DNA of 64,000 nucleotides, taken from Pseudomonadota bacterium (lineage in GTDB: Bacteria > Bdellovibrionota > Bdellovibrionia > Bdellovibrionales > Bdellovibrionaceae). Location of the stretch: NCBI GenBank assembly GCA_041178425.1, contig JBEGVH010000016.1, forward strand, positions 1 to 64,000. Direction: 5' to 3'. Each line of letters opens with the position of its first letter. Within the stretch, counting starts at the first letter, position 1. The notes below the pieces were generated by a model, which did no database searches, was not told the origin of the DNA, and worked only from the letters and a program-made list of their open reading frames with translations. Below, piece after piece: positions 2,043 to 47,596 of this stretch. The translations under genes and the position numbers were made by a program.

Positions 2043-2249
2043 TTATGCCGCCTTTTTTTCCTCGTTCGTGACCTCTTCCTGGGTTGAAGCCGATTCAGAG
2101 GCTTTCACCTCTTCAGACTTGCCGCCCTGGATGACCTCTAGCTTTAATTGCTTTCTGAGTTCAGCTATGCATTCCTGATCTCGTTCATAAAAGTAGGCTT
2201 CCTCTCGATCGTAACCCACTGCCTGTATATTTCTGCGAATCGTATTCAT
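2043..2249 (-). CDS. Small charged hypothetical protein (68 aa) with an IF1-like REEAYFYERDQE..L motif
   Basis: SD AAGGAG precedes the ATG at 2249. The longer ORF-track start has no SD. Confidence 0.55.
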   Translation of the reverse strand: MNTIRRNIQAVGYDREEAYFYERDQECIAELRKQLKLEVIQGGKSEEVKASESASTQEEVTNEEKKAA

Positions 2250-2694
2250 CAACCCTATCTCCTTTTTACGTTCAGCTTTACGTTCGTCTTTTGCTACCCA
2301 CCCCTTGACTTCGACCTTCAAGACTAAAGTAGGCACTCGACCAGAATAAGCTGAAAACTAAAAGTCCCAAATGCTAAATCTGAAAAAACTGGTGGTAACT
2401 GGTTAATTTGAATCTGGCGAATTTGGATGTACACCTTTGAAACGTGACGCTCGAACCAAGGGACAATCTATCACAGAGAGTCACGCAAAATGTCATTTCG
2501 AGACAACTCGAAGAATTTAACTTTTGAGGGTTTAAGATGATTACGAAGTGTATTTGTCACGTTGCTTCAACGATCTCTTATGATGAATTTTGCTCAAGGC
2601 TCTCCCCTGAAAAAGGTGAATTTTCCAATGGACTTATTGGCAACTTCGTAACAGAGTGTCACCCATACAAAAAGCACCTAACAAAGGAAGATCT

Positions 2695-4203
2695 ATGCAA
2701 AAGCATCTTGTTCGCGTTTATCCTTCTAAAGAAAAAATCGAAAGAAAAGATCAACTCGCTTGGAAAATGGCTGAAGTTGCAACCGACAATACGCCAATTA
2801 AAGACGATGTGGTTGATATGGTGATCAATCGGATTATCGATAATGCCTCCGTTGCAATTGCGGCCGCTAACCGTCGACCCGTAGCAAGTGCAAGAGCTCA
2901 AGCTCTCGCACACCCGAGAGAAGGTGGTGCAACCGTTTTTGGAATGCCTAACAATCAAAAATTTTCAGCTGAGTGGGCAGCGTGGGCCAACGGCACTGCG
3001 GTTCGTGAGCTTGACTACCACGACACCTTTCTCGCTGCTGATTACAGCCACCCTGGCGATAACATCCCAGCTGTTCTTGCTGTTGCACAACAAAAAGGAA
3101 TTAATGGCCAACAACTGCTCAAGGGAATCCTTACGGGTTATGAGTTACACGTAAATCTCGTTAAAGGGATCTGTCTTCATAAACACAAAAAAGATCATAT
3201 TGCTCACTTGTGTCCCGCTCAAGCCGCAGGGATTGGTACACTTCTCGGCCTTTCAACGGAAACTATTTTTCAATCTATCCAACAGGCGGTTCATGTTTCC
3301 TTCACAACTCGCCAATCGCGAAAAGGCGAAATTTCTAGCTGGAAGGCCTATGCGCCTGCCCATGCTGGAAAACTTGCCATCGAGGCTGTTGATCGTTGCA
3401 TGCGCGGCGAAGGTGCCCCATCACCTATTTACGAAGGTGAAGATTCTGTCATTGCCTATATGCTCGATGGCAAAGATGGAAAATATGAAGTTCCACTCCC
3501 CGAAAAAGGTGAAGAGAAAAGGGCTATTCTGGAAACCTACACCAAAGAGCACTCTGCGGAATACCAATCACAAGCTTTGATCGATCTCGCTCGTAAAATG
3601 AAAACGAAAATTTCGAACTTTGATGATATCAAAGAAGTTATTATTCATACTTCCCATCATACGCATTACGTGATTGGAACGGGCTCTGGCGATCCACAAA
3701 AGATGGATCCAAAGGCCTCTCGTGAAACACTTGATCACTCGATCATGTATATCTTTGCTGTCGCACTTCAGGATGGAACTTGGCACCACGTTGATTCTTA
3801 TGCTCCTGAGAGAGCTCAGCGTGCCGATACCGTTCGTTTATGGCATAAAATTAAAACTGTTGAAGATGCGAAATGGACTGAGGCCTATCACGATCAAGAT
3901 CCAAACAAAAAAAGATTTGGTGGCCGCGTAGAAATCGTTTTCAATAATGGCGAAAAACTCATCGACGAACTAGGCGTTGCCGATGCTCACCCTGCGGGAG
4001 CACGTCCGTTCAAACGCGCTGACTATATTCGTAAATTCGAAACCCTCACGAAGGGCATTATTACGCCCGAGGAAAGCCAGCGATTTTTGAATCTCGTTCA
4101 GAGACTTCCTGAATTGTCGGCCGCAGAAGTTCAACAACTGAACGTCCAAATTCCTGTTGATAAACTGACCAACAACAAACGTGATGATAAAGGGATATTT
4201 TAA
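2695..4203 (+). CDS. prpD: 2-methylcitrate dehydratase (MmgE/PrpD family)
   Basis: Motifs [23 protein letters not shown] and ETLDHS. AAGGAAG SD before ATG 2695. In an operon with prpB and prpC. Confidence 0.93.
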
Positions 4204-5102
4204 TGTTGTTCCAAAAGACAACTCCCACCGAAAAAAGAGCGGCTTTTAGAGCCGCTCTTAAAACAGGTAAGCTCCTTCGCTTTCCTGGAGCTTTTTCTCC
4301 TCTAGTTTCACTTCTCATTGAAGAACTGGGATTTGATGGAGTGTATATATCTGGTGCCGTTTTAGCCAATGACCTTGGTTACCCAGATATTGGCTTAACC
4401 ACATTGAGTGAAGTCGCTGGCCGCGGACGACAAATTGCCCGAGTCACAAAACTGCCTTCTATCATCGATATCGACACTGGATTTGGTGAGCCTATGAATG
4501 TGGCACGAACAATCCAAGAACTCACCGAGCTTGGTTTAGCAGGCTGCCATCTCGAAGATCAACAAAACCCAAAGCGTTGTGGTCACCTCGACGGCAAGTC
4601 ACTAGTAGACAGTTCTGAAATGATCAAAAAGATTCGTGCAGCCTCAGATGCGAAAACAGATCAGAATTTTTTACTGATCGCTCGAACAGATGCTCGTGCA
4701 AGTGAGGGACTCGAAAAAGCTATCGACAGAGCAAAAGCCTACGTCGATGCGGGTGCTGAAATGATTTTTCCAGAAGCTCTACAAAATGAAAAAGAATTTG
4801 AGGCTTTCAGAAAAGCAGTGGCTGTCCCCCTTTTAGCGAACATGACGGAGTTTGGTAAATCGAATCTTCTGAATGCGACGCAATTGTCGAATTTAGGCTA
4901 CAATATGGTTATCTACCCAGTGACGAGCCTACGAATCGCCATGGGCGCTGTTGAGAGTGGCTTTAAAGAAATTCTCGAAAAAGGGTCTCAAGAGTCACTT
5001 TTAGATAAAATGCAGCATCGTCAAAGACTTTACGAACTTGTAAAGTATGCCGAATACAATCACTTTGATCAGAGTATTTATAACTTTAAACTGCAAAAAT
5101 AG
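4203..5102 (+). CDS. prpB: 2-methylisocitrate lyase
   Basis: KRCGH active-site motif, DIDTGFG, ARTDA and LANMTEFG. TAATG overlap with prpD. Confidence 0.95.
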   Translation: MLFQKTTPTEKRAAFRAALKTGKLLRFPGAFSPLVSLLIEELGFDGVYISGAVLANDLGYPDIGLTTLSEVAGRGRQIARVTKLPSIIDIDTGFGEPMNVARTIQELTELGLAGCHLEDQQNPKRCGHLDGKSLVDSSEMIKKIRAASDAKTDQNFLLIARTDARASEGLEKAIDRAKAYVDAGAEMIFPEALQNEKEFEAFRKAVAVPLLANMTEFGKSNLLNATQLSNLGYNMVIYPVTSLRIAMGAVESGFKEILEKGSQESLLDKMQHRQRLYELVKYAEYNHFDQSIYNFKLQK

Positions 5103-5110
5103 GAGAGGTC

Positions 5111-6280
5111 ATGAGCAACAACTACATCAATCCTGACTACGTTCCAGAACCAGAAAAAATGAATGTCAAAAAAGGTCTCGAAGGGGCCGTCATCGACACA
5201 TCGAGTGTGTCTAAAGTGAATCCTGACACCAACTCTCTTATCTACAGAGGCTATCCGGTTCAGGATCTTGCTGAAAATTGCCGATTTGAAGAGGTTGCCT
5301 ACCTCATGTACAAGGGAGAGCTACCAAACGAACAACAATTAAAAGAATTTGAAAATCTCGAGAGAGGCTACCGCTCTCTTTCGGAAGACAACCTCAAGGT
5401 CATCAAGCTTCTTCCAAAGGCTTGTCACCCTATGGACTCAATTCGTACCGGCGTCAGTTTTCTAGGTTGCGAAGACACACGAACCTGGGCCAATGATCCT
5501 GCGACTAATTTCGATAAAGCGGTTCGCCTGTTGGCAAAAATTCCACTTATGGTGGCAGCCGACTACCGTTTTAAAAAGGGTCTTGAATATATCGCTCCCC
5601 AAAAAGAACTCAGTCTTTCTGAAAACTTTTTCAATATGTGCTTTGGTAAAATTCCAGACGCTAAAATTGTAAAAGCATTTGATGTTTCTTTGATCCTCTA
5701 TGCTGAACATAGCTTTAATGCCTCAACTTTTACGAGCCGAGTGGTGACTTCAACTGAGTCGGATATCTACAGCGCAACCGTTGCTGGTATCGGAGCACTG
5801 AAGGGTCCGTTGCATGGTGGCGCCAATGAGCAAGTGATGCACATGATGAAAGAAATTAATGATCCTACCATTGCTCGGGATTGGATGCTCAACGCTCTCG
5901 CTCAAAAGAAAAAAGTGATGGGCTTTGGTCATCGCGTTTACAAGTGTGGAGACTCTCGAGTTCCAACTATGAAAAAGTACGCTCAAGTGATGGCCGACGT
6001 TACTGGGCAACAAAAGTGGATGCAGATCTACGAAGCTCTTGAGCAAACCATGATTGAGAAGAAAAAGATCTATCCAAATCTCGATTTCCCAGCAGGTCCA
6101 GCATATTACATGATGGGATTCGAGATTGACTTCTTTACCCCGATCTTTGTCATGGCGAGAACGACCGGTTGGTCTGCGCACATCATGGAACAAGCGGCAA
6201 ATAACCGCATTATCAGGCCTTTAAGCGAGTACATTGGCGCACCACAGAGGACAGTCGTACCTCTTGCCCAAAGAAAGTAA
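5111..6280 (+). CDS. prpC: 2-methylcitrate synthase
   Basis: Citrate-synthase motifs EHSFNAST, GPLHGGA, GFGHRVY and PNLDF. Sits in the prp operon. Confidence 0.92.
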   Translation: MSNNYINPDYVPEPEKMNVKKGLEGAVIDTSSVSKVNPDTNSLIYRGYPVQDLAENCRFEEVAYLMYKGELPNEQQLKEFENLERGYRSLSEDNLKVIKLLPKACHPMDSIRTGVSFLGCEDTRTWANDPATNFDKAVRLLAKIPLMVAADYRFKKGLEYIAPQKELSLSENFFNMCFGKIPDAKIVKAFDVSLILYAEHSFNASTFTSRVVTSTESDIYSATVAGIGALKGPLHGGANEQVMHMMKEINDPTIARDWMLNALAQKKKVMGFGHRVYKCGDSRVPTMKKYAQVMADVTGQQKWMQIYEALEQTMIEKKKIYPNLDFPAGPAYYMMGFEIDFFTPIFVMARTTGWSAHIMEQAANNRIIRPLSEYIGAPQRTVVPLAQRK

Positions 6281-6316
6281 CTTTAAAAATTGAGGGCTCC
6301 CTGCTAAAATCTAAGC

Positions 6317-6940
6317 ATGAACCACAAGCGAAGAAAATTAGCTATTACTGGGGGCCCTTCGGGCGGCAAAACAACTCTTATTGAAAATCTACAAAGAGAT
6401 TTAGGCCCGGCAATTGCTGTAGCGCCTGAGGCTGCTTCTATTCTCTATAGGGGTGGTTTTCCTCGGCGAAAAGGGGTTGAACGCCAAAAGCATATTCAAC
6501 GTGCTATTTATTATACACAATTCGAACTCGAGGCGCTGGTTCAAGATGAATACCCCCAAAAACTAATTATCTGTGATCGTGGAAGTCTCGACAGTCTTGC
6601 CTACTGGCCTGATGACGGCACAAATTTTTTTGAAACTGTTGATTCAACGATAGAATCAGAAATCGCAAGATACGATTGGGTTCTTCACTTAGACACCGCA
6701 CCTGAATCAAACTATGACTCTGAAAATCCCATTCGCACTGAGACCTATGCTGAAGCGCAAAAGTTAAATGATCGAATATTAGAGGCTTGGGCCGCCCATC
6801 CCCAACGATGGATCATCCACCATCAAATGGATTTTTTCACTAAGATGAGTCTCTGCATGAAAATCATTAAGATGCTTCTGCAAAATAAAAGCTACAACGA
6901 AATCGAAAATAGCATCGGCCGTTTTGAAGAAGGCGCCTAA
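6317..6940 (+). CDS. P-loop NTPase, AAA_28 (NadR/Ttd14-like) family
   Basis: Walker A GGPSGGKTT plus PEAA and CDRG motifs. Confidence 0.75.
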   Translation: MNHKRRKLAITGGPSGGKTTLIENLQRDLGPAIAVAPEAASILYRGGFPRRKGVERQKHIQRAIYYTQFELEALVQDEYPQKLIICDRGSLDSLAYWPDDGTNFFETVDSTIESEIARYDWVLHLDTAPESNYDSENPIRTETYAEAQKLNDRILEAWAAHPQRWIIHHQMDFFTKMSLCMKIIKMLLQNKSYNEIENSIGRFEEGA

Positions 6941-6986
6941 ATCACCGAATAAATATAGGACGGCTTTCGCCAATCATAAGGTGAAC

Positions 6987-8933
6987 CTAGGATTTCTTAA
7001 ACAAACTCCCAATCACCTGCCCAAGATCACCGTGCAAAAGATCTTGCTTCTTGGGAGCGGTGTCTACCACTGGCATACCTTTAGCGTTGAGCTCTCTTCG
7101 CGCTTCGATAAGATTTTTGTCGATGGCCAAGGCACTTTCAAAAAACTTTTTCGCGACCGCCGTTTCGCCCTTACCTTTGGCTAATAGCCCCTGAATAAAG
7201 TTTCCCATCGCCGACAACTTTTCCTCGGACGGGACTCTCGCCATCATTTGATCTATCTCACTAAGCTCCTTGAGCTTGTTCTTGGAATTTACTAGGAGTC
7301 CAATTCGAGCCCAAATTGAATAAAGCAGCAAAAAATCTAATTTCGGAAAGAGTTCGTTTGCACGATTGAGGGCCACCATAGCTTGAGGGTATTGCTTCAT
7401 CGATAATAATTTTTTAGCTTCTTCGGCTTTTGCCTGAGCCTCTGTTCTTTGCGAAACTTTACCCGTCTCCAACTCTCGTTCGTACTGAGCTAACGCCTCT
7501 GGATCGAGATACAATTCATACGATGAATTCACTTTTTCACGGACACTCTCATACACAATTTTATAGGCTTCATTTGCCGACGGATGGGGAGTCGCGCCAA
7601 GGTGGCGCTGCATGAACTCTCCATAGGTAGCATGAATTTCTCTGGCATCCATATCTTTACGGCCGCCGATCATCTGAAAGACTTCTAGCAAATTGAGGTC
7701 TCTCATCTGCGACCATATTTTTTGCAGTCGAGCCGTTCGCTCGCCCTCTGACATCAATTGTGCTTTTTCTCCAAAAACAATAAACCTCATACAAAGTAAA
7801 TAATAAATGGCGCGATTAAACTCCGTCATAGCCTGGTAGTATTTATGGTTGATTTGCGATAATGCACCACCCGCCTCGATCACCGAAATCAAATCTTTGA
7901 GGTTCTGTATGGATTGCACCTGATATTCGCGTCGATTTCGATCATGACCAGGCCCCAATCGCACAACATAATCCTGCCAGGTCACAAAATGTTGATTGAG
8001 CCAATCTCCCGAGACCTTGGCATTGATCCACTCATCCAAAAAATGGTAAAAAGATTCTGGTTCAATAGATGCTTCCGCCTCAAGGACTTCGCGCTCTTCA
8101 AAATTCACGACGTAATGACCATCTTGAATTAGGCGCTCCAAGCGCAAAGATAATTGCTGCTCGAGTGCTTCATTGATAGCATGCGGAGAAATGAAGTTGA
8201 GGTTAACAAGACGCTGTCCAATTTTGTGTTCAGGAGGTTGCTGAAGGGCAAACTCGAGATCTTCGGGCAAGACCCATCCTCCTGCAACCAAGATTTTCCC
8301 TATGAAATTCTGGGTGTCGGGACTTTCAACACCTACGATTGAACCGTGGTTAAAAAATACTTTGCTCTTTTCATCTCGCTCGCTCAAAAAGTGTATTACT
8401 CCAGTATACGAACTTGCTGTCGCAGCCGACAGGAGGAGCGGGAGCTCATAGCCGTGAATACGATCGATCTCTTTAAAAATATCGGCTGCTCGCGATGGAT
8501 TTGCACCCACCTTGTCAGGAAGTGAAAAGTGACTTCGCGCGAGACTCTCATCATTAACCGTCGCCGACTCTTTTTCGAGAAACTTAAGAACCTCATTGAT
8601 TTCGAAAGGTTTCTTTAGAAAATCGACAGCTGCGACCTCTTGGCTAATTTCTTTCATCATTTGTTTGTCTGTGAAGATTCCACTCATCATCACAATGGGC
8701 AAAATTTTCGAATCGAAATTTTTTCGAATATTCCTAGCGAGATCAACACCTGGAGTCTGGGGGAGTAGGCAGTCGATAAAAACTAATTTAAACGAATCTT
8801 TATCTAATGCTGCAATAGCATCTTCAGGCCTCTGGCAAACGAGTGAAGCATAACCGGCTTTTTTTACGGCTCCAGCTAAGGCATTTGCAAGAATGGCATC
8901 ATCTTCAACAATTAAAACTTTTTTTGCACCCAT
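6987..8933 (-). CDS. Multidomain response regulator: receiver + DUF4388-like region + degenerate J-like domain + TPRs
   Basis: Receiver motifs VEDD, IDCLLP and KPF. Central IGKILV/IGQRLV repeats, J-like helices, and TPR-like C-terminus. Confidence 0.75.
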   Translation of the reverse strand: MGAKKVLIVEDDAILANALAGAVKKAGYASLVCQRPEDAIAALDKDSFKLVFIDCLLPQTPGVDLARNIRKNFDSKILPIVMMSGIFTDKQMMKEISQEVAAVDFLKKPFEINEVLKFLEKESATVNDESLARSHFSLPDKVGANPSRAADIFKEIDRIHGYELPLLLSAATASSYTGVIHFLSERDEKSKVFFNHGSIVGVESPDTQNFIGKILVAGGWVLPEDLEFALQQPPEHKIGQRLVNLNFISPHAINEALEQQLSLRLERLIQDGHYVVNFEEREVLEAEASIEPESFYHFLDEWINAKVSGDWLNQHFVTWQDYVVRLGPGHDRNRREYQVQSIQNLKDLISVIEAGGALSQINHKYYQAMTEFNRAIYYLLCMRFIVFGEKAQLMSEGERTARLQKIWSQMRDLNLLEVFQMIGGRKDMDAREIHATYGEFMQRHLGATPHPSANEAYKIVYESVREKVNSSYELYLDPEALAQYERELETGKVSQRTEAQAKAEEAKKLLSMKQYPQAMVALNRANELFPKLDFLLLYSIWARIGLLVNSKNKLKELSEIDQMMARVPSEEKLSAMGNFIQGLLAKGKGETAVAKKFFESALAIDKNLIEARRELNAKGMPVVDTAPKKQDLLHGDLGQVIGSLFKKS

Positions 8934-32500: not shown

Positions 32501-33055
32501 ATGAGCATTATTTCAACAGATAAAATTAAAAGTAGTCTTAAAAAAATCGAGGCAGAGGTCCAACATTTACTCGAGCTTAAGCCAACGCCGATTGATTTGT
32601 TTGAGGTTTCCACCGACTTCGAGAATGACCGATTTCAAATTCAAGCTAACGATAGAGAAGAGTTCTATATTCTTCTGTTCTCGAGACTGTCCCAGTCCTT
32701 TGAGAAGGGATTTCTTTTAGAAGCTTCCAATAACTATTCAGATAAAGCTTGGACCTGTGCCCTTCATTTTTCTGAGGGAAGTATTTCAGTTGCTGAACAT
32801 CCGATTCCCGTCGAAATCACAATCCCTTCGCCCGGACCAAACAAAGTGATAAAAGCTAGTCCGCTTGAATGGAACTTAAAAACAGTCTCTTGGAAAACCT
32901 TGATTCCCGTTGGCAGAGAATGGTCTGCACTCCTTTTTGAGATCTCGCCGGATATTCGTTTTTTATTTATAACTCGTTTGGCTGAACCATGGCTCCAAAT
33001 TCAAACGGAAAAAGCTCACCAGTTTATTGAAAGGGCGCTATCACTTCAACCATGA
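32501..33055 (+). CDS. Hypothetical protein
   Basis: 184-aa ORF preceded by TTGACC-N16-TAGACT-N6-ATG. Overlaps the start of the next gene. Confidence 0.55.
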   Translation: MSIISTDKIKSSLKKIEAEVQHLLELKPTPIDLFEVSTDFENDRFQIQANDREEFYILLFSRLSQSFEKGFLLEASNNYSDKAWTCALHFSEGSISVAEHPIPVEITIPSPGPNKVIKASPLEWNLKTVSWKTLIPVGREWSALLFEISPDIRFLFITRLAEPWLQIQTEKAHQFIERALSLQP

Positions 33056-35675: not shown

Positions 35676-36206
35676 TTAAGTAGCAGCCTCAGGTCCTATG
35701 GGCCTAACAACAACGCCAAGATCAGAGACATTTGTTTGACTCTTGATCGAAACAGAAGGGTTCTGCACCACTCGCTGCTGCAATTTTGCAAAAATAGCCT
35801 CACGAATTTGCAACTGATTATCCTGAAGCACGCACTGACGAGCTAAACGCAGCTTCACATTCACCAAAATAGGAGCCTTCAAATTTGCCGTCATGAGGGT
35901 TGGATCCTCTGGAATTGTGATAATGGCGAAGGCTCGCGGGCGCTGTCCACCCTCAAGACGAAGCGACTCATTGTCTGTTTTTGTGAGCATTGGTTTATAT
36001 TCAGGAGCAAAAATTTCTGGTTCTAAAACTGGAAATGCAATATCGGGCACTTCGCAACTTTGTAGCCATGCAAAGATTTCGTCGTTAGGGTCATCAAGCA
36101 AAACAAAACGACGTAAATCATTAAAGCCAAGGATTCCCTCTGGAAAATTAATGACATCCTCTTGCGCGATCTGAACTTTTCCAAATCGTGTCGTAGTGAT
36201 AATCAC
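35676..36206 (-). CDS. fliW: Flagellar assembly factor / CsrA antagonist FliW
   Basis: Motifs TTRFG, FPEGILGF, WLQS and TANLKAPI. AGGAGG SD before GTG 36206. Confidence 0.93.
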   Translation of the reverse strand: MIITTTRFGKVQIAQEDVINFPEGILGFNDLRRFVLLDDPNDEIFAWLQSCEVPDIAFPVLEPEIFAPEYKPMLTKTDNESLRLEGGQRPRAFAIITIPEDPTLMTANLKAPILVNVKLRLARQCVLQDNQLQIREAIFAKLQQRVVQNPSVSIKSQTNVSDLGVVVRPIGPEAAT

Positions 36207-36515
36207 AGTCCCTCCTGTTAAAAACCGTTTTTTGGCGATCATCCTTGGTTTTAAATCCAAAAAACGTCTTACCGATACTAGTTCAAATCGGCCATTCGTT
36301 TGCCCGATTGCCTCTGCAGAAATCTTAAAGACAAACTCTAATGCTCGCTTTGCAGATTCCACATTGAGACTCTTTAAATAGTACCCTGATTAAAATGTGA
36401 CTTTATTTTTGAAGGGAAACAAGATAAATCTAGACCTGCCTGATTCGACGCACAAAGCCAACCTCATCACTACAGTGGAGATTGGTTTGGATTACTTTAC
36501 CTTATGAAGTGCTAA

Positions 36516-36758
36516 TTAACCTGAATGCTCTTCTTTTTTTAACATTCTTGAAATCGAGCGAGTGACATCAGAAGTAGAACTAGCCGCTTGCTGGTTTTGC
36601 TCCTGAATTGCCATATAAACTTCTTCTCTGTGAATTTTAGTGTCCTTGGGAGCCTCGATACCAAGCCTTACTTGCTTTCCCTTGATTTGGACAACTCTAA
36701 TCTTGATGTGATCATCTATTGCAATGCTCTCACCAAGTTTGCGCGTCAACACTAACAT
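36516..36758 (-). CDS. csrA: Carbon storage regulator CsrA, FliW-type (N55, C-terminal extension)
   Basis: MLVLTRK...VRLGIEAP...HREEVY, with Asn at position 55. Confidence 0.97.
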   Translation of the reverse strand: MLVLTRKLGESIAIDDHIKIRVVQIKGKQVRLGIEAPKDTKIHREEVYMAIQEQNQQAASSTSDVTRSISRMLKKEEHSG

Positions 36759-40555: not shown

Positions 40556-41074
40556 TTAAAAGTTGAATCCAAACTGGAGCAGACCAGGCCCTGCAAACAA
40601 GTAAGAGAGATAAAAATCGAATGTATCTCCCATAATGAAGAAGCCCAAACCGGAGTAACTACTGCCAAGAGCGCCCGACAACTTAAGATGGGGACCAGAT
40701 TGCACTGCAAGTCCCGCAAAAGATCCCACTTGTATATAAGGACGAATATTAGCTTGCCCCAAAATATATTTCACGTTGATTGCACCTGCCATATCTAAAT
40801 TAGCATGACTGCTGCTCGCGTTGCTAAAATAGCATCTTATCGAGCCATTACTGCCGGGTGTGCAATCTTCAGACTCTGTTGAATTTAAATAGCCCATCCC
40901 AAACTCAAAGGCCCACCGATACCACAATCGAGTAAAATTTAAACCGATGGCTGCATTGGGTGGATTATGGTAACCCATGCCCCAATACCAACCTGGCGGA
41001 CCAGCCAACGCTGTATTTGAAATCAGATAACTCATCAAAACAGAAATAGCTAAAACTCTTCTTACTGGCCACAT
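40556..41074 (-). CDS. Putative small outer-membrane beta-barrel protein
   Basis: Signal peptide ending ALA, amphipathic strands (RPYIQVG), and C-terminal QFGFNF beta-signal. Confidence 0.6.
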   Translation of the reverse strand: MWPVRRVLAISVLMSYLISNTALAGPPGWYWGMGYHNPPNAAIGLNFTRLWYRWAFEFGMGYLNSTESEDCTPGSNGSIRCYFSNASSSHANLDMAGAINVKYILGQANIRPYIQVGSFAGLAVQSGPHLKLSGALGSSYSGLGFFIMGDTFDFYLSYLFAGPGLLQFGFNF

Positions 41075-41076
41075 AA

Positions 41077-41724
41077 CTATTCTTTCTCTTCCATTTTCCA
41101 TAAAAACTGTTTGGCATCGGGAGCAAGAACTCCAAGATTTTCTCCTGCTGAAATCTTGTCTCCTATTTGTCGGTCAGAGAACTGAAAGTTTCCAATAAGC
41201 AAAGACTTTACACCTTGATGATCTAACTTTGCGACTTCAAGACCATTTTCGAGTTTGAAGCTCCCAAGCCACTGAGCATCCCACGGACTCTGAATCGGAG
41301 TTGGCTTTCCCTCATTCGACTGAATCTTATCAAATTGAATAGCCTTGTTACGCTCCTGAACCTGCCCCATCCAGAGGTCTTTTTGACTCAGTGGTAAAGG
41401 CCCCATTGGCTTTTCTTTTGGAACTCTGATGCCAAGACGATCTCCGTATCGATCAACTAACTGATCGTAGATCATTTTACCGAGCCCGATCCCCCCCTTG
41501 TCGCCCCACTGTTCGACATACTGCTGATCGAGCTGCTCGCGATAGTATTTTTCAGCAAAACCAGATGGCATGAACTCGCTCTCATTCACCGTGGCTCGCA
41601 TTTGTTTTACCATTTCGCGAAGAAATTGCTTTTCATAGAGAGAAGCAACATCCTTCAGCTGCTTTTCTGCAGCTGAAGGTTCCATGATTCGACTGGGCGG
41701 ATTGGATTTAATGTTGATTCCCAT
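41077..41724 (-). CDS. flgJ: FlgJ-type rod-binding protein lacking the glucosaminidase domain
   Basis: Rod-binding motif LKDVASLYEKQFLREMVKQMRAT...GIGLGKMIYDQL. Follows flgI. Confidence 0.8.
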   Translation of the reverse strand: MGINIKSNPPSRIMEPSAAEKQLKDVASLYEKQFLREMVKQMRATVNESEFMPSGFAEKYYREQLDQQYVEQWGDKGGIGLGKMIYDQLVDRYGDRLGIRVPKEKPMGPLPLSQKDLWMGQVQERNKAIQFDKIQSNEGKPTPIQSPWDAQWLGSFKLENGLEVAKLDHQGVKSLLIGNFQFSDRQIGDKISAGENLGVLAPDAKQFLWKMEEKE

Positions 41725-41734
41725 ATTTTAAAGA

Positions 41735-41940
41735 AGAAAAAAGTGGGGAGGTTAAGTTTGAATCGCGTGCATCCTGCACTGACTCTTTAAGCTTCGGCCT
41801 ATTATCACCATTCCTTGGTGTGCTGACCTTGTGCCCTTGTTTCCTGCAAAGAAACGTTTTTTTTACTCTTGACCATCCATGGTTCGAGATTCTTACTCAC
41901 CCTCCCCGAACCTTAAACACATCCATGTGTCTAAGGCTTA
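41735..41940 (-). ncRNA. Candidate CsrB/RsmZ-like CsrA-binding RNA (sRNA or structured flgJ leader)
   Basis: Five hairpins with AUGGAU, AGGAA or AGGAU loops, a closing helix GGGGAGG/CCUCCCC, and a terminal U-tract. No ORF of 60 aa or more. Ends are approximate. Confidence 0.72.
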
Positions 41941-41996
41941 AAAACAAACTTATAAATTTAGTGTAATAAAAAATGTAAAAATCTTATACATATTTC

Positions 41997-43028
41997 TCAT
42001 AAAATCTGTAATTCCCCGTGCAAAGCTCCAGCTGCCTTTATGGACTGAAGTATAGTTATCAGGTCTTTTGGAGAGATTCCGAGCTTATTTAAGCCCTGGA
42101 CTAGCTCCCCAACACTAATCGATCCACCAATAATCGCCATTTTTTCTTCTGCCGCCGACTTGTCTTTTTTGCCATCCGCGCTAGGTACTTTAATCGAAAT
42201 TGATCCGTGACTTAAGACAACTCTTGAAATTTTCACTTTGTCACCAATGACAACAGTACCAGTCTTTTCATTGATAACAACTTTGGCTTGAGAATCAGGA
42301 TTTACCTCAATCGATTCTATATTAGCTAGAAAATCAACGCCTCTCCCCTCGAAAGAAGGCGGAACTATAATATCGATCGTGGCTGGATCTTTTGCTGAGG
42401 CATACAGACCTCCCAATTCTTTGTTGATCGTCAGTACAGCCCTTGTCGCGGTTGTGAAATCAGGATTATTAAGCGTCAAACGAAACATTTTTTTTGAATT
42501 AAAATCACTTGAAATATCTTTTTCAATCATTGCCCCATTGGGAACCCGGCCCACGGTTGTATGAGCTTCTTTTTCGGCCCCAATAAAAACAGGCCCTTGT
42601 GCCACACCATAAACTTCTTCATTGGCGGCTCGCATCGGTGTCATAAGAAGAGTTCCCCCTTGTAAACTGGAGGCACTTCCGATTGAATTCACCATCACAT
42701 CAATAGTATTTCCTGCTTTTCCAAAAGCCGGCAAGGTCGCCGTAACCACAACAGCAGCGACGTTTTTACTTTCAAGATCTTGATTCTCAAGTTTCAATCC
42801 TAATTTATCAAGCATTCTAACAAAGCTTTTTTTTGTGAACTCATCCTTGGCATCTCCAGTACCCTTAAGACCTATCACTAGGCCATAACCAATGAGCTGG
42901 TTTTCTCTAACACCTCGAATATTCGCGATATCTTTGAGACGTGAAGCCAAACACCATTCTGAACTCAGCAAAATTAATAGAGAGGCTAAAATAAATCTTA
43001 TCTTTACTGATCTTTGGTCTAGTCTCAT
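41997..43028 (-). CDS. flgI: Flagellar P-ring protein
   Basis: Motifs RENQLIGYGLVIGLKGTGD, NVAAVVVTA, NEKTGTVV and KAAGALHGEL. Confidence 0.96.
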   Translation of the reverse strand: MRLDQRSVKIRFILASLLILLSSEWCLASRLKDIANIRGVRENQLIGYGLVIGLKGTGDAKDEFTKKSFVRMLDKLGLKLENQDLESKNVAAVVVTATLPAFGKAGNTIDVMVNSIGSASSLQGGTLLMTPMRAANEEVYGVAQGPVFIGAEKEAHTTVGRVPNGAMIEKDISSDFNSKKMFRLTLNNPDFTTATRAVLTINKELGGLYASAKDPATIDIIVPPSFEGRGVDFLANIESIEVNPDSQAKVVINEKTGTVVIGDKVKISRVVLSHGSISIKVPSADGKKDKSAAEEKMAIIGGSISVGELVQGLNKLGISPKDLITILQSIKAAGALHGELQIL

Positions 43029-46666: not shown

Positions 46667-47596
46667 ATGAAAAAAGCCCTCATTTGGACGATCAATATAA
46701 TGATGAGTACCGCACACTGTCTGCCGAATACGGCAATAAAAAAGCCTGAGGCTTCTTTGAGTACCAAGACGATGATCTCAGATGCCTCAGCACCGTTGAT
46801 ATTTGATATTCCGGTTACCTACAACAGCCAAGTCAGTCGTTGGATTAAGACCTACCAAACGGGTGGCCAGAATATGTTTAAGCGATGGCTCGAACGGTCT
46901 TACAAATACTTTCCGATGATAAAAAAAGAACTCGAGAGAAATAACTTACCAAAAGATTTAGCTTATATGGTTATGATTGAGAGCGGATTTGCGCCTCTTG
47001 CGACGAGCCATGCTGAAGCTGTCGGCCCCTGGCAGTTTATAGAGTCTACTGCTAATCGATATGGCCTACAAACTAACTGGTGGCTAGATGAGAGAAGAGA
47101 CTTTCGTAAAAGCACTTTAGCTGCTATCAGCTACATGCGTGATCTCTATGCTGAATTTGGCTCATGGTATCTGGTGGCTGCAAGCTACAACATGGGCGAG
47201 AATGGCTTACGGAGAACTATTCAAAAACACCAAACCAAAGATTACTGGAAGCTCATTCAACTCAAAGCTCTTCCCACGGAAACGGCTGAGTACGTCCCCA
47301 AACTACTAGCGTCGATGTTAGTGGCCAAAGCTCCCAGTCTCTACGGTTTTCGCTCTCTTCGAGCCATGGAACCCATTGATTACCAAATCGTAAACGCCCC
47401 AGGCGGTTCCCAATTAGATGAGCTCGCCGATTATTTGGGGGTCACACGCCAATATCTCAGAGAGATTAATCCGGAGCTCAAGGTTGGATTTATTCCTAAA
47501 GAGATTGCAAACCATCCTATTCACGTACCTAAAGGCTCTTTGAAGCTTGCGAAACAATTTATTTCCAAGAGTGAAAAATCTGTGGCAGTAGAATAA
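46667..47596 (+). CDS. MltD-like lytic transglycosylase
   Basis: Motifs MIESGF, AVGPWQF, DERRD, ASYNMGE and ETAEYVPK, plus a LysM-like C-terminus. Start uncertain. Confidence 0.88.
   Translation: MKKALIWTINIMMSTAHCLPNTAIKKPEASLSTKTMISDASAPLIFDIPVTYNSQVSRWIKTYQTGGQNMFKRWLERSYKYFPMIKKELERNNLPKDLAYMVMIESGFAPLATSHAEAVGPWQFIESTANRYGLQTNWWLDERRDFRKSTLAAISYMRDLYAEFGSWYLVAASYNMGENGLRRTIQKHQTKDYWKLIQLKALPTETAEYVPKLLASMLVAKAPSLYGFRSLRAMEPIDYQIVNAPGGSQLDELADYLGVTRQYLREINPELKVGFIPKEIANHPIHVPKGSLKLAKQFISKSEKSVAVE

What the first reader, a model, noticed from the sequence alone, without database searches (positions are those of the whole stretch)
41735..41940. Candidate CsrB/RsmZ-like 'sponge' RNA inside the flagellar cluster that also encodes CsrA and FliW
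Seen (minus strand, 5'->3'): H1 CCUUAGACAC-AUGGAU-GUGUUUAAGG (41911-41936). Then a long-range helix GGGGAGG..UGAGU..GAAUC / GAUUC..ACUUA..CCUCCCC, with outer arms at 41901-41907 and 41745-41751. It encloses H2 ACC-AUGGAU-GGU (41866-41888), H3 CUUUG-CAGGAAA-CAAGG (41835-41851), H4 CACCA-AGGAA-UGGUG (41806-41820) and H5 GUGC-AGGAU-GCAC (41767-41779). A U-tract follows, just before the SD-less flgJ ATG. Established: ANGGA in hairpin loops is the CsrA/RsmA binding element, and arrays of these hairpins define CsrB/RsmY/RsmZ, which are described from Gammaproteobacteria. Lineages with csrA-fliW are thought to use the FliW protein instead. Inference: this organism may control CsrA with both FliW and an RNA decoy made with the rod/ring operon, or the element is a CsrA-responsive attenuator/leader for flgJ.
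Basis: partly seen in the sequence, partly recalled or inferred. Interest (0 to 1): 0.92.

Follow-up and report, generated by a model that had tools for sequence, protein, structure and literature searches.

The report
Candidate CsrA decoy RNA after flgI
A conserved small RNA between two flagellar genes of Bdellovibrio-like predatory bacteria displays the hairpin motifs bound by the regulator protein CsrA, so it may soak up CsrA in a lineage thought to use only the protein FliW for that job.

Summary
The flgI-flgJ spacer (minus strand, about 41733-41954) encodes a structured RNA of about 205-220 nt. A covariance model finds it once per genome in 116 of 151 genomes of the window's order, and in 0 of 127 genomes of 20 other families of the phylum. 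Stems covary and loops are fixed. GGA is kept at five sites, in 56 to 66 of 66 sequences each. A conserved -10 box precedes the RNA, and a long closing helix plus a U-tract ends it. The counterpart in B. bacteriovorus is the published attack-phase sRNA APsRNA1, which has a mapped start site, about 50,000 RPKM and no assigned function. csrA (the FliW-binding type) and fliW lie 5 kb downstream on the same strand. In a sister order the same spacer holds a promoter and two GGA hairpins, the second over the flgJ start. This suggests a CsrA-controlled operon leader that became a terminated decoy RNA. CsrA binding is untested, the RNA matches no Rfam family, and I found no paper linking it to CsrA. 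Two earlier notes of this scan reached the same reading on other genomes.

The parts
41733..41937 (-). Body of the RNA as matched by covariance model R1 (H1 through the U-tract). The true 5' end is probably about 17 nt further upstream, near 41954.
   Evidence: R1 hit G000:C16:41733-41937, 186.3 bits, E 9.8e-52, the only hit in the genome at E<=1. Fold z = -3.72.
41974..41990 (-). Palindrome TGTATAAGATTTTTACA, starting 6 nt after the flgI stop codon. It aligns with TGTTTC-N5-GAAACA in other genera and overlaps the -35 region.
   Evidence: Alignment of 26 spacers. The role is inferred. No regulon was found.
41960..41965 (-). -10 box TACACT. The predicted start is about 41954 by analogy.
   Evidence: A TAnAnT hexamer sits in the same alignment block in 25 of 26 loci. 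In locus L040 the published APsRNA1 start falls 6 nt after TACAAT. The simple sigma-70 scan found no full -35/-10 pair here.
41911..41936 (-). H1: 10-11 bp stem, hexaloop AUGGAU (GGA at 41922-41924). CAUGGAUG fits CANGGANG.
   Evidence: 10 of 11 pairs show changes on both sides. GGA kept in 61 of 66 sequences. Unpaired probability 0.98.
41872..41883 (-). H2: ACC-AUGGAU-GGU (GGA at 41876-41878). CAUGGAUG fits CANGGANG.
   Evidence: GGA kept in 66 of 66 sequences. Unpaired probability 0.88. The stem hardly varies: changes on both sides in 0 of 3 pairs on A1 and 1 of 3 on A2.
41839..41855 (-). H3: GUUUC-UUUGCAG-GAAAC. The GGA (41842-41844) lies at the loop/stem edge. This is the most conserved block (GCAGG).
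   Evidence: GGA kept in 63 of 66 sequences. Unpaired probability 0.18. Stem 92% paired with few changes.
41806..41820 (-). H4: CACCA-AGGAA-UGGUG (GGA at 41812-41814).
   Evidence: 5 of 5 pairs covary. GGA kept in 56 of 66 sequences. Unpaired probability 0.97.
41767..41779 (-). H5: GUGC-AGGAU-GCAC (GGA at 41772-41774). Contains CAGGAUG.
   Evidence: 3 of 4 pairs (A1) and 4 of 4 pairs (A2) covary. GGA kept in 64 of 66 sequences. Unpaired probability 0.97.
41895..41907 (-). 5' strand of the closing helix P1 (GGGGAGG..UGAGU).
   Evidence: MFE. On A2, changes on both sides in 5 of 6 outer pairs (93% of cells paired) and 4 of 4 inner pairs (90%).
41731..41757 (-). 3' strand of P1 (ACUUA.CCUCCCC, 41745-41757) followed by the U-tract (41731-41742). 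Together with the 5' strand this forms an intrinsic-terminator-like end.
   Evidence: A U-rich tail follows CUCCCC in the 66 aligned sequences. The published APsRNA1 end lies at the same place in L040. The simple terminator scan misses it because its loop limit is 8 nt.
41997..43028 (-). flgI (P-ring), upstream neighbour.
   Evidence: PF02119, E 5.7e-112.
41077..41724 (-). flgJ-like rod-binding protein gene. Its ATG lies 8 nt after the end of the R1 match (41733, itself 12 nt past CCUCCCC), i.e. 20 nt after CCUCCCC, and no Shine-Dalgarno precedes it.
   Evidence: PF10135, E 4.5e-15. Sequence read. Distances.
36516..36758 (-). csrA, same strand, 5 kb downstream of the RNA. It is the FliW-binding type, with N55 and a C-terminal extension.
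   Evidence: PF02599, E 9.5e-26. The best solved relatives are the CsrA chains 1t3o and 5dmb.
35676..36362 (-). fliW, next to csrA.
   Evidence: PF02623, E 1.9e-35.

Best explanation
The flgI-flgJ spacer encodes a small RNA that binds the translational regulator CsrA and holds it away from its mRNA targets.

The RNA is transcribed from its own sigma-70-like promoter just after flgI. That start is shown in a relative and inferred here. The RNA folds into a 5' hairpin (H1) followed by a long closing helix. The closing helix encloses four more hairpins and, with a U-tract, terminates the transcript. The fold is supported by covariation.

Four loops (H1, H2, H4, H5) present GGA in the sequence context of high-affinity CsrA sites. 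A fifth GGA (H3) is half paired. A CsrA dimer binds two GGA sites, so one RNA could hold about two dimers (inferred). The RNA is abundant in the swimming attack phase of B. bacteriovorus and 16-fold lower in the growth phase (published). It would therefore lower free CsrA when flagella are made and release CsrA when the cell settles in its prey (inferred). FliW, encoded next to csrA, would remain the second, protein antagonist.

In this genome and most relatives there is no room for another promoter between the terminator and flgJ. The same promoter therefore probably also feeds flgJ-flgM-flgN-flgK-flgL-csrA-fliW by read-through. On this reading the RNA is a leader turned decoy (inferred).
For: The RNA is real and under selection. 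The spacer is alignable by DNA in 26 of 41 relatives and lies between flgI and flgJ in 26 of 26 fetched loci. On the MAFFT alignment A1, 91.7% of cells are paired against 41-47% with slid partners, 21 pairs change on both sides against 8-14, and 0 of 500 shuffles reach the observed values. On the 66-sequence alignment A2, 36 of 39 pairs change on both sides (that alignment is fitted to the model).

The loops are the selected part. Mean identity is 0.845 for loop columns, 0.73 for stems and 0.55 for other unpaired columns. Columns at 90% identity or more number 17 of 28 in loops and 4 of 99 in other unpaired stretches. GGA is kept at H1 in 61 of 66 sequences, H2 66 of 66, H3 63 of 66, H4 56 of 66 and H5 64 of 66, and all five are present in 53 of 66. 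Unpaired probability of the GGAs is 0.98, 0.88, 0.97 and 0.97 for H1, H2, H4 and H5, against a background of 0.39.

The loops fit published CsrA sites. The SELEX consensus is RUACARGGAUGU in six-nucleotide loops closed by AC/GU (review passages), and CANGGANG hexaloops are described as high-affinity sites. H1 and H2 read CAUGGAUG.

The partner is present. The window holds csrA and fliW, and the CsrA has N55 and a C-terminal extension. Among the 116 genomes with the RNA, 112 have a CsrA match and at least 109 have a FliW match. B. bacteriovorus CsrA represses a GGA-dependent reporter (passages).

A discrete transcript is published. APsRNA1 is 207 nt, with a start site mapped by 5'-end sequencing, 50,451 RPKM in attack phase against 3,181 in growth phase, and no FliA promoter. 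Its published coordinates (499,375-499,581, +) coincide within 5-9 nt with the R1 hit in the closed genome G089 (499,380-499,590, +).

There is an independent hint that CsrA acts at this spot. In a sister order the same spacer carries two GGA hairpins with unrelated stems.
Against: No binding, titration or phenotype data exist for this RNA and CsrA. The link rests on motif, structure and context.

There are only four exposed GGAs, few next to the 22 GGA sequences of CsrB. The raw GGA count is not above chance.

28 genomes of the order have CsrA but no R1 hit at E<=0.001, so the RNA is either diverged there or dispensable.

The transcript evidence comes from a relative, not from this organism. 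The RNA-seq material I could lay consisted of contigs only, which cannot show ends or levels.

The position directly in front of flgJ, and the sister-order leader, fit a purely cis-acting role as well.
Confidence: 0.55

Rival explanations
1. Cis-acting leader or attenuator only. The RNA is the 5' leader of the flgJ...csrA-fliW transcript. CsrA binding to its loops sets how often transcription stops at the closing helix, or how flgJ is translated. This would give CsrA feedback on its own operon. The abundant terminated product would be a by-product with no effect in trans.
For: The distance from the end of the R1 match (12 nt past CUCCCC) to the flgJ start codon is short (median 34 nt, range 2-339, in 26 loci with start codons picked by script). 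In most loci, including the window (8 nt), there is no room for a separate promoter. No exact FliA-type promoter pattern lies on the minus strand between the RNA and csrA. In the sister order the same spacer is a plain leader, with a promoter and two GGA hairpins, the second over the flgJ ribosome site. csrA lies about 5 kb downstream on the same strand in both orders.
Against: Karunker et al. discarded long 5'UTRs whose expression was connected to the downstream gene, yet kept APsRNA1 as an sRNA (methods passage; Table 2). Expression of 50,451 RPKM is far more than a by-product needs. I saw no conserved alternative (antiterminator) pairing: the GAGUCA/UGACUC option is limited to some families (by eye). 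The spacing to flgJ varies up to 339 nt. A terminated RNA that still carries four CsrA sites would titrate CsrA anyway, so the two readings are not exclusive.
Confidence: 0.2
2. Base-pairing sRNA, or ligand of another protein. The RNA acts on attack-phase mRNAs by antisense pairing, as its discoverers suggested, or binds an RNA-binding protein other than CsrA. The GGA loops would serve that partner, or loop-loop contacts.
For: Karunker et al. proposed base pairing for the APsRNAs in general (discussion passage). H3 and its loop UCGCAG are nearly invariant without an obvious CsrA-type presentation.
Against: Outside the hairpin loops, only 4 of 99 unpaired columns reach 90% identity, so there is no conserved single-stranded seed. 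The conserved letters are A.GGA.G, CCA.GGA.GG, GCAGG and AGGA.G, which is the CsrA motif repeated. CsrA is the protein described in the papers I read as recognising GGA in hairpin loops, and it is encoded in the same gene cluster.
Confidence: 0.12

Closest known systems
APsRNA1 of Bdellovibrio bacteriovorus HD100 (Karunker et al. 2013, PLoS One 8:e61850, PMC3627812; Table 2 and passages read)
   Same: Same family and same locus. Model R1, built from the window's relatives, hits a closed genome of the same family (G089) at 499,380-499,590 (+). The published APsRNA1 coordinates are 499,375-499,581 (+), 207 nt. The window RNA aligns with loci of that genus at about 75% identity.
   Different: The paper reports only expression, a start site and a predicted fold. 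It states that no homologues were found outside B. bacteriovorus and suggests base pairing. It makes no link to CsrA, GGA loops, flgI-flgJ or FliW. The window's version has a longer stretch between the -10 box and H1, and flgJ follows its terminator directly.
RsmY/RsmZ/RsmX and CsrB/CsrC, the CsrA-sequestering sRNAs of Gammaproteobacteria
   Same: A non-coding RNA with several GGA motifs in short hairpin loops, its own promoter and an intrinsic terminator, in a genome with CsrA. The motif context (CANGGANG, CAGGAUG) is the same.
   Different: There is no sequence or structure homology: no Rfam hit at E<=10. It has fewer exposed sites (four). A long closing helix that doubles as the terminator encloses the hairpins. 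It sits inside a flagellar gene cluster upstream of csrA-fliW. It occurs in a phylum outside Gammaproteobacteria and together with FliW, whereas Csr sRNAs and FliW are described as anti-correlated. Control by a GacA/UvrY-type system was not examined.
flaA mRNA leader of Campylobacter jejuni (Dugar et al. 2016, PMC4894983; passages read)
   Same: An RNA antagonist of CsrA in a bacterium that has FliW. It has two GGA hexaloops of the CANGGANG type and belongs to the flagellar regulon.
   Different: flaA is a coding mRNA that is itself repressed by CsrA. The RNA here is a terminated non-coding transcript with four or five sites. The sister-order flgJ leader is the closer analogue of flaA.
hag leader of Bacillus subtilis with the Hag-FliW-CsrA partner switch
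   Same: A FliW-type CsrA (N55, C-terminal extension). csrA and fliW sit in a cluster with flgM, flgN, flgK and flgL.
   Different: In B. subtilis no RNA antagonist is described, and CsrA is controlled by FliW alone. Here an additional GGA-hairpin RNA is conserved in the cluster.

Membership tests
Rfam Csr/Rsm sRNA families (CsrB, CsrC, RsmY, RsmZ/PrrB, RsmX and others in release 15) | Match to a family covariance model at or above its gathering score | tested here: not met
   cmscan of 41000-42700 at E<=10 returned only a chance miRNA match. The whole window at gathering scores returned only a tRNA.
CsrA-sequestering sRNA (functional class) | Several GGA motifs presented in loops of short hairpins | tested here: met
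   Five sites, four of them exposed. Shuffle test 0 of 2000. Conservation 56-66 of 66 per site. Unpaired probability 0.88-0.98.
CsrA-sequestering sRNA (functional class) | Discrete, abundant, non-coding transcript with its own start and terminator | tested here: inconclusive
   Published for the counterpart in B. bacteriovorus. For the window there is only the conserved -10 box, closing helix and U-tract. The RNA-seq contigs gave no ends.
CsrA-sequestering sRNA (functional class) | CsrA encoded in the same genome | tested here: met
   PF02599, E 9.5e-26, at 36516-36758. 112 of the 116 genomes with the RNA have CsrA.
CsrA-sequestering sRNA (functional class) | GGA-dependent, high-affinity binding of several CsrA dimers, and relief of CsrA repression in vivo | not testable with these tools
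   Needs EMSA or ITC, CsrA pull-down sequencing, and genetics.
CsrA-sequestering sRNA (functional class) | Transcription driven by a GacA/UvrY-type response regulator through an upstream palindrome (feature recalled from memory) | not tested
   A palindrome overlaps the -35 region (41974-41990). Its position and half-sites differ from what I recall of the GacA box. No regulator was sought.
APsRNA1 family (Karunker et al. 2013) | Same locus, strand and size as the published sRNA, and sequence/structure homology to it | tested here: met
   R1 hits the window (186 bits) and G089 at 499,380-499,590 (+). Published coordinates are 499,375-499,581 (+), 207 nt.
CsrA-repressed mRNA leader (hag, flaA, glgC type) | A GGA site overlapping the Shine-Dalgarno sequence or start codon of the downstream gene | tested here: not met
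   In the window, the terminator and the stretch CUUCUUUAAAAU precede the flgJ ATG, with no GGA or Shine-Dalgarno. The feature is met in the sister order, in 9 of 15 loci with two hairpins of 4 bp or more and 11 of 15 if 3-bp stems are allowed.

The most novel reading that the evidence does not exclude
An entire order of predatory bacteria controls CsrA with two antagonists at once: the protein FliW and an RNA decoy. The decoy evolved from the CsrA-controlled leader of the flgJ...csrA-fliW operon by gaining extra GGA hairpins and a terminator. One promoter then makes either the decoy (by termination) or csrA-fliW mRNA (by read-through), and CsrA itself may bias that choice. This self-balancing unit would set free CsrA at the switch between the swimming attack phase and growth inside prey.
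Probability: 0.3. Interest if true: 0.85.

Novelty: new variant of a known kind. Interest (0 to 1): 0.72.

Why it matters
RNA decoys of CsrA are described as a feature of Gammaproteobacteria. FliW is described as their anti-correlated substitute elsewhere (passages). [quoted passage not shown]

A conserved, abundant RNA with four or five GGA hairpins, encoded in the same cluster as csrA and fliW across a whole order, makes that question directly testable in a culturable organism. [quoted passage not shown] And it offers a worked example of how a CsrA-controlled mRNA leader can turn into a decoy RNA.

Tried and rejected
- **Rfam:** no family fits.
- **Raw GGA count as a statistic:** not significant, since 690 of 2000 shuffles reach 6. 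I replaced it with GGA in hairpin loops.
- **Crude genome-wide scan for GGA-hairpin clusters:** the locus is not unique by count alone. 7 loci have 5 or more sites, and one antisense to an ORF in the window (32589-32862) has 6. The other six all lie inside open frames of 187-1492 codons.
- **Paralogues:** none in the window's genome at E<=1.
- **Regulon of the promoter palindrome:** TGTTTC-N4-6-GAAACA occurs 1-4 times per strand in 5 genomes, against 1-6 for the reversed control, so it is not enriched.
- **FliA-type promoter patterns:** TAAG-N15-17-CCGAT and TAAA-N14-17-GCCGATA are absent from the minus strand between the RNA and csrA. These were exact patterns only, so this is a weak negative.
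- **Simple promoter/terminator scan:** no sigma-70 pair, and the long-loop terminator falls outside its definition.
- **Flagellin leaders of the window's genome** (7 genes): my automatic start calls were unreliable. One leader shows two CAAGGAGGAU repeats. I draw no conclusion.
- **RNA-seq:** 14 RNA runs of one organism, from 6 studies, hold the counterpart locus, but only as contigs. The four I laid (from four studies) give no ends, strand or level. In one run, short pieces inside the RNA have depths of 2200-7113 against about 459 for the flanking contigs. This is only a hint.
- **Antiterminator:** the pairing GAGUCA/UGACUC around H5 exists in some families but not others (by eye).
- **The 11-bp hairpin inside flgJ (41652-41679):** not conserved even in the same genus.
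Full report
**What is there**

On the minus strand the window carries a flagellar cluster. In order it holds flgF/flgG-type rod genes, flgA, flgH, flgI (41997-43028), a 272-nt spacer, a flgJ-like rod-binding gene (41077-41724), an ORF of 181 codons with no Pfam match, flgM, flgN, flgK, a flgL-like gene, csrA (36516-36758) and fliW (35676-36362).

- H1 at 41911-41936, loop AUGGAU.
- GGGGAGG at 41901-41907, pairing with CCUCCCC at 41745-41751.
- H2 core ACC-AUGGAU-GGU at 41872-41883.
- H4 at 41806-41820, loop AGGAA.
- H5 at 41767-41779, loop AGGAU.
- A U-run at 41737-41742.
- The flgJ ATG at 41722-41724, with no Shine-Dalgarno before it.

Folding 41725-41996 gives -73.2 kcal/mol, z = -3.72, with 0 of 200 shuffles folding as well. 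The fold reproduces H1, H2, H4, H5 and the closing helix.

**More than chance?**

The number of GGA triplets alone (6) is ordinary, since 690 of 2000 dinucleotide shuffles reach it. Five GGAs inside loops closed by 4 bp or more is not: the shuffle mean is 0.57 and 0 of 2000 shuffles reach five. In the whole genome (3.06 Mb, both strands) only 7 loci reach 5 such crude sites within 220 nt. The other six lie wholly inside open frames of 187-1492 codons, and this one is intergenic.

**Conservation and structure**

The spacer itself matches by DNA in 26 of 41 related genomes, including 21 of 24 in the same family. In all 26 fetched loci the match lies between flgI and flgJ. Spacer identity is 69-79% across genera, while FlgJ proteins are only 35-47% identical.

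On a MAFFT alignment of 26 sequences (A1) I tested a structure of 39 pairs (H1, closing helix, H2-H5):
- 91.7% of cells are paired, against 41-47% when the partners are slid.
- 21 pairs change on both sides, against 8-14 in the slid controls.
- 0 of 500 shuffles reach any observed measure.
- Pairs with changes on both sides: H1 10 of 11, H4 5 of 5, H5 3 of 4.

I built a covariance model (R1). It finds one copy in the window's genome and no paralogue at E<=1. It finds the RNA in 116 of 151 genomes sampled from the order, with at least one hit in each of the 13 families. It finds the RNA in 0 of 127 genomes of 20 other families of the phylum.

On a model-guided alignment of 66 sequences (A2), 36 of 39 pairs change on both sides and 92% of cells are paired. 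That alignment is fitted to the model, so it leans towards the structure.

**The GGA sites**

In A2 the GGA is kept as follows:

| Site | Sequences with GGA | Commonest loop |
|---|---|---|
| H1 | 61 of 66 | AUGGAU |
| H2 | 66 of 66 | AUGGAW / AAGGAW |
| H3 | 63 of 66 | GCAGGAA, at the loop/stem edge |
| H4 | 56 of 66 | AGGAU |
| H5 | 64 of 66 | AGGAU |

53 of 66 sequences keep all five.

Partition-function folding of each sequence puts the GGA unpaired with mean probability 0.98 (H1), 0.88 (H2), 0.97 (H4) and 0.97 (H5). The value is 0.18 for H3, 0.26 for GGAs elsewhere in the RNA, and 0.39 for all bases. So four sites are displayed and one is half buried.

Loop columns are more conserved (0.845) than stems (0.73) or other unpaired columns (0.55). 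Columns at 90% identity or more spell A.GGA.G, CCA.GGA.GG, GCAGG and AGGA.G, plus the G and C runs of the closing helix and the U-tract. Fixed loops on covarying stems, with no conserved single-stranded linker, are what a loop-reading protein would select. They are not what an antisense seed would leave.

The loops fit the published CsrA site. The SELEX consensus is RUACARGGAUGU, mostly in six-nucleotide loops closed by AC/GU (review passages). High-affinity sites are CANGGANG hexaloops. H1 and H2 of the window read CAUGGAUG, and H5 contains CAGGAUG.

**Is it a transcript?**

Right after the flgI stop codon the 26 spacers share a palindrome: TGTTTC-N5-GAAACA in most genera, and TGTATAAGATTTTTACA at 41974-41990 in the window. 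Eight bases further on, 25 of 26 share a TAnAnT hexamer, which is TACACT at 41960-41965 in the window.

Karunker et al. 2013 (PMC3627812; Table 2, methods and discussion passages read) list APsRNA1 in B. bacteriovorus HD100:
- Coordinates 499,375-499,581 (+), 207 nt.
- Start mapped by 5'-end sequencing with and without pyrophosphatase.
- 50,451 RPKM in attack phase and 3,181 in growth phase.
- No FliA promoter.
- Function unknown, and no homologues found outside the species.

R1 hits the closed genome G089, of the same family, at 499,380-499,590 (+). The numbers coincide within 5-9 nt, so I treat the two as one locus without knowing what G089 is. In that locus the published start falls 6 nt after TACAAT, the hexamer that aligns with the conserved box. 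The published end falls in the U-tract after the closing helix.

By analogy the window's RNA would start near 41954 and end near 41736, giving about 219 nt. This is inferred.

14 RNA libraries of one organism, from 6 studies, contain the counterpart locus, but only as assembled contigs. The four I laid show no ends or levels.

**Partner and context**

The window's CsrA (80 aa) is closest to the solved CsrA chains 1t3o and 5dmb (that 5dmb is the Geobacillus CsrA-FliW complex is my recall). It has the C-terminal extension and N55 that a 2026 paper names as the FliW-contact features. B. bacteriovorus CsrA represses the GGA-dependent hag reporter in B. subtilis (passages).

In the same 151 genomes of the order, CsrA is found in 140 and FliW in 130. 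Of the 116 genomes with the RNA, 112 have a CsrA match; the other four are assemblies of 360-810 contigs. At least 109 have a FliW match. Four closed or nearly closed genomes without CsrA (G042, G052, G061, G067) also lack the RNA. They may simply lack flagella, which I did not check. 28 genomes have CsrA but no R1 hit. Weak hits in one genus still show GGA hairpins (L084-L086), so divergence explains part of this gap.

csrA lies 4-6 kb downstream of the RNA on the same strand in most genomes (coordinates).

**A lead from the sister order**

In another order of the phylum I fetched 15 loci around flgI from family f21. There the flgI-flgJ spacer is only about 90-120 nt and is not matched by R1 (0 of 23 genomes of that family). 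Most of these spacers hold a TGnTAnAAT-type promoter box followed by two hairpins that display GGA. The second hairpin sits over the ribosome site and start codon of the flgJ-like gene, for example GGUGAUAAAGGAAUUAUCACC ... GGUCAGGAAGACUAUG. The stems are unrelated between genera and the loops stay AGGAU/AGGAA.

- Two hairpins with stems of 4 bp or more: 9 of 15 loci.
- Two hairpins if 3-bp stems are allowed: 11 of 15.
- One hairpin: 3 of 15 (in one of them, L109, with only a 3-bp stem).
- Unclear: 1 of 15.

flgM and flgN follow, and csrA lies about 4-6.5 kb downstream on the same strand in 5 of 5 closed or near-closed genomes.

This is the classic layout of a CsrA-repressed leader. The simplest reading is that the promoter in this spacer drives flgJ...csrA-fliW and that CsrA has long acted on its leader. 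In the window's order the leader would then have gained more GGA hairpins and a terminating closing helix, and it accumulates as a small RNA. This evolutionary step is inferred.

**Mechanism**

My best reading (0.55) is a CsrA decoy. The abundant terminated RNA presents four high-grade sites plus one gated site. It binds about two CsrA dimers and lowers free CsrA during the flagellated attack phase. FliW remains a second, allosteric antagonist tied to flagellin export.

The end of the R1 match lies 8 nt from the flgJ start in the window (20 nt from CCUCCCC). The median is 34 nt and the range 2-339 nt in 26 loci, with start codons picked by script. No exact FliA pattern lies between the RNA and csrA. 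Read-through from the same promoter therefore probably feeds the operon that holds csrA and fliW.

That leaves a purely cis-acting attenuator as the main rival (0.2). Against it stand the very high level of the RNA, its classification as an sRNA unconnected to the downstream gene, the variable spacing, and the lack of a conserved alternative pairing. The two readings are not exclusive.

A base-pairing role or another protein partner (0.12) fits poorly with the pattern of conservation.

**Comparison with what is known**

By homology the RNA is a member of the APsRNA1 family and of no Rfam family. By predicted mode of action it resembles RsmY/RsmZ/CsrB. It differs from them in four ways: ancestry, architecture (a closing helix that is also the terminator), location (inside the flagellar cluster, upstream of csrA-fliW), and co-occurrence with FliW.

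The papers I read describe Csr sRNAs as gammaproteobacterial and anti-correlated with fliW. I read passages only of PMC7652899, PMC4894983 and PMC13407953.

Literature searches:
- 'Bdellovibrio' + 'CsrA': 13 papers, none on an RNA antagonist.
- 'APsRNA1': only the 2013 paper.
- CsrA + FliW + sponge + sRNA: 12 papers.
- CsrA + FliW + sRNA + GGA since 2021: 18 papers, 16 listed.

None links this RNA to CsrA. The library lacks most subscription journals, so this is not proof of absence from print.

Two earlier notes of this scan (e1-2212026 and e1-2108097) reached the same conclusion on other genomes. I retrieved them after forming my reading, and they are not independent evidence.

**Limits**

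- No experiment links the RNA to CsrA.
- The transcript data come from a relative.
- The inner junction of the fold (the helices around H2, H4 and H5) was not resolved.
- Start codons of flgJ in other loci were picked by script.
- The supplements of the 2013 paper were not seen.

Noticed in passing
L106-L120 (sister order, family f21), the 90-120 nt after flgI: The flgI-flgJ spacer holds a TGnTAnAAT promoter box and two GGA hairpins, the second over the flgJ ribosome site and start. The stems differ between genera and the loops are fixed. This looks like a CsrA-repressed leader of an operon that ends in csrA.
   Followed up: partly
window 41974-41990 (minus strand); same block in L006-L026: A palindrome lies right after the flgI stop and overlaps the -35 region of the RNA's promoter (TGTTTC-N5-GAAACA in most genera). 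It could be an operator. H3 of the RNA has the same GUUUC...GAAAC arms with a different spacing. A genome search found no enrichment of the palindrome.
   Followed up: partly
window 41652-41679 (minus strand), inside flgJ codons 16-24: A perfect 11-bp hairpin, CCUUCAGCUGC-AGAAAA-GCAGCUGAAGG, was flagged as terminator-like. It is not conserved in the same genus or in other genera.
   Followed up: yes
L040 1707-1745 (G089): A second hairpin with flanking A- and U-runs (AAAAAAGGUAC-AUCC-GUACCUUUUU) follows the RNA's terminator, before a GGAG ribosome site and the flgJ ATG. So there are two terminators in a row in that genome.
   Followed up: no
L022, spacer downstream of the RNA's terminator: An extra GCGC-AUGGAU-GCGC hairpin, a sixth GGA loop, lies between the terminator and flgJ in this genome.
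   Followed up: no
window 40556-41101 (minus strand): An ORF of 181 codons between flgJ and flgM has no Pfam match and overlaps the end of flgJ by 25 nt.
   Followed up: no
window 32589-32862 (minus strand): This is the densest crude GGA-hairpin cluster of the genome (6 sites in 220 nt). It lies antisense to an ORF of 184 codons on the plus strand and is most likely chance.
   Followed up: partly
G000 contigs C11, C30, C31, C42: There are seven flagellin genes in the genome. One leader (C11, gene at 47179-47589) carries two CAAGGAGGAU repeats, one of them at the ribosome site, reminiscent of a two-site CsrA leader.
   Followed up: partly
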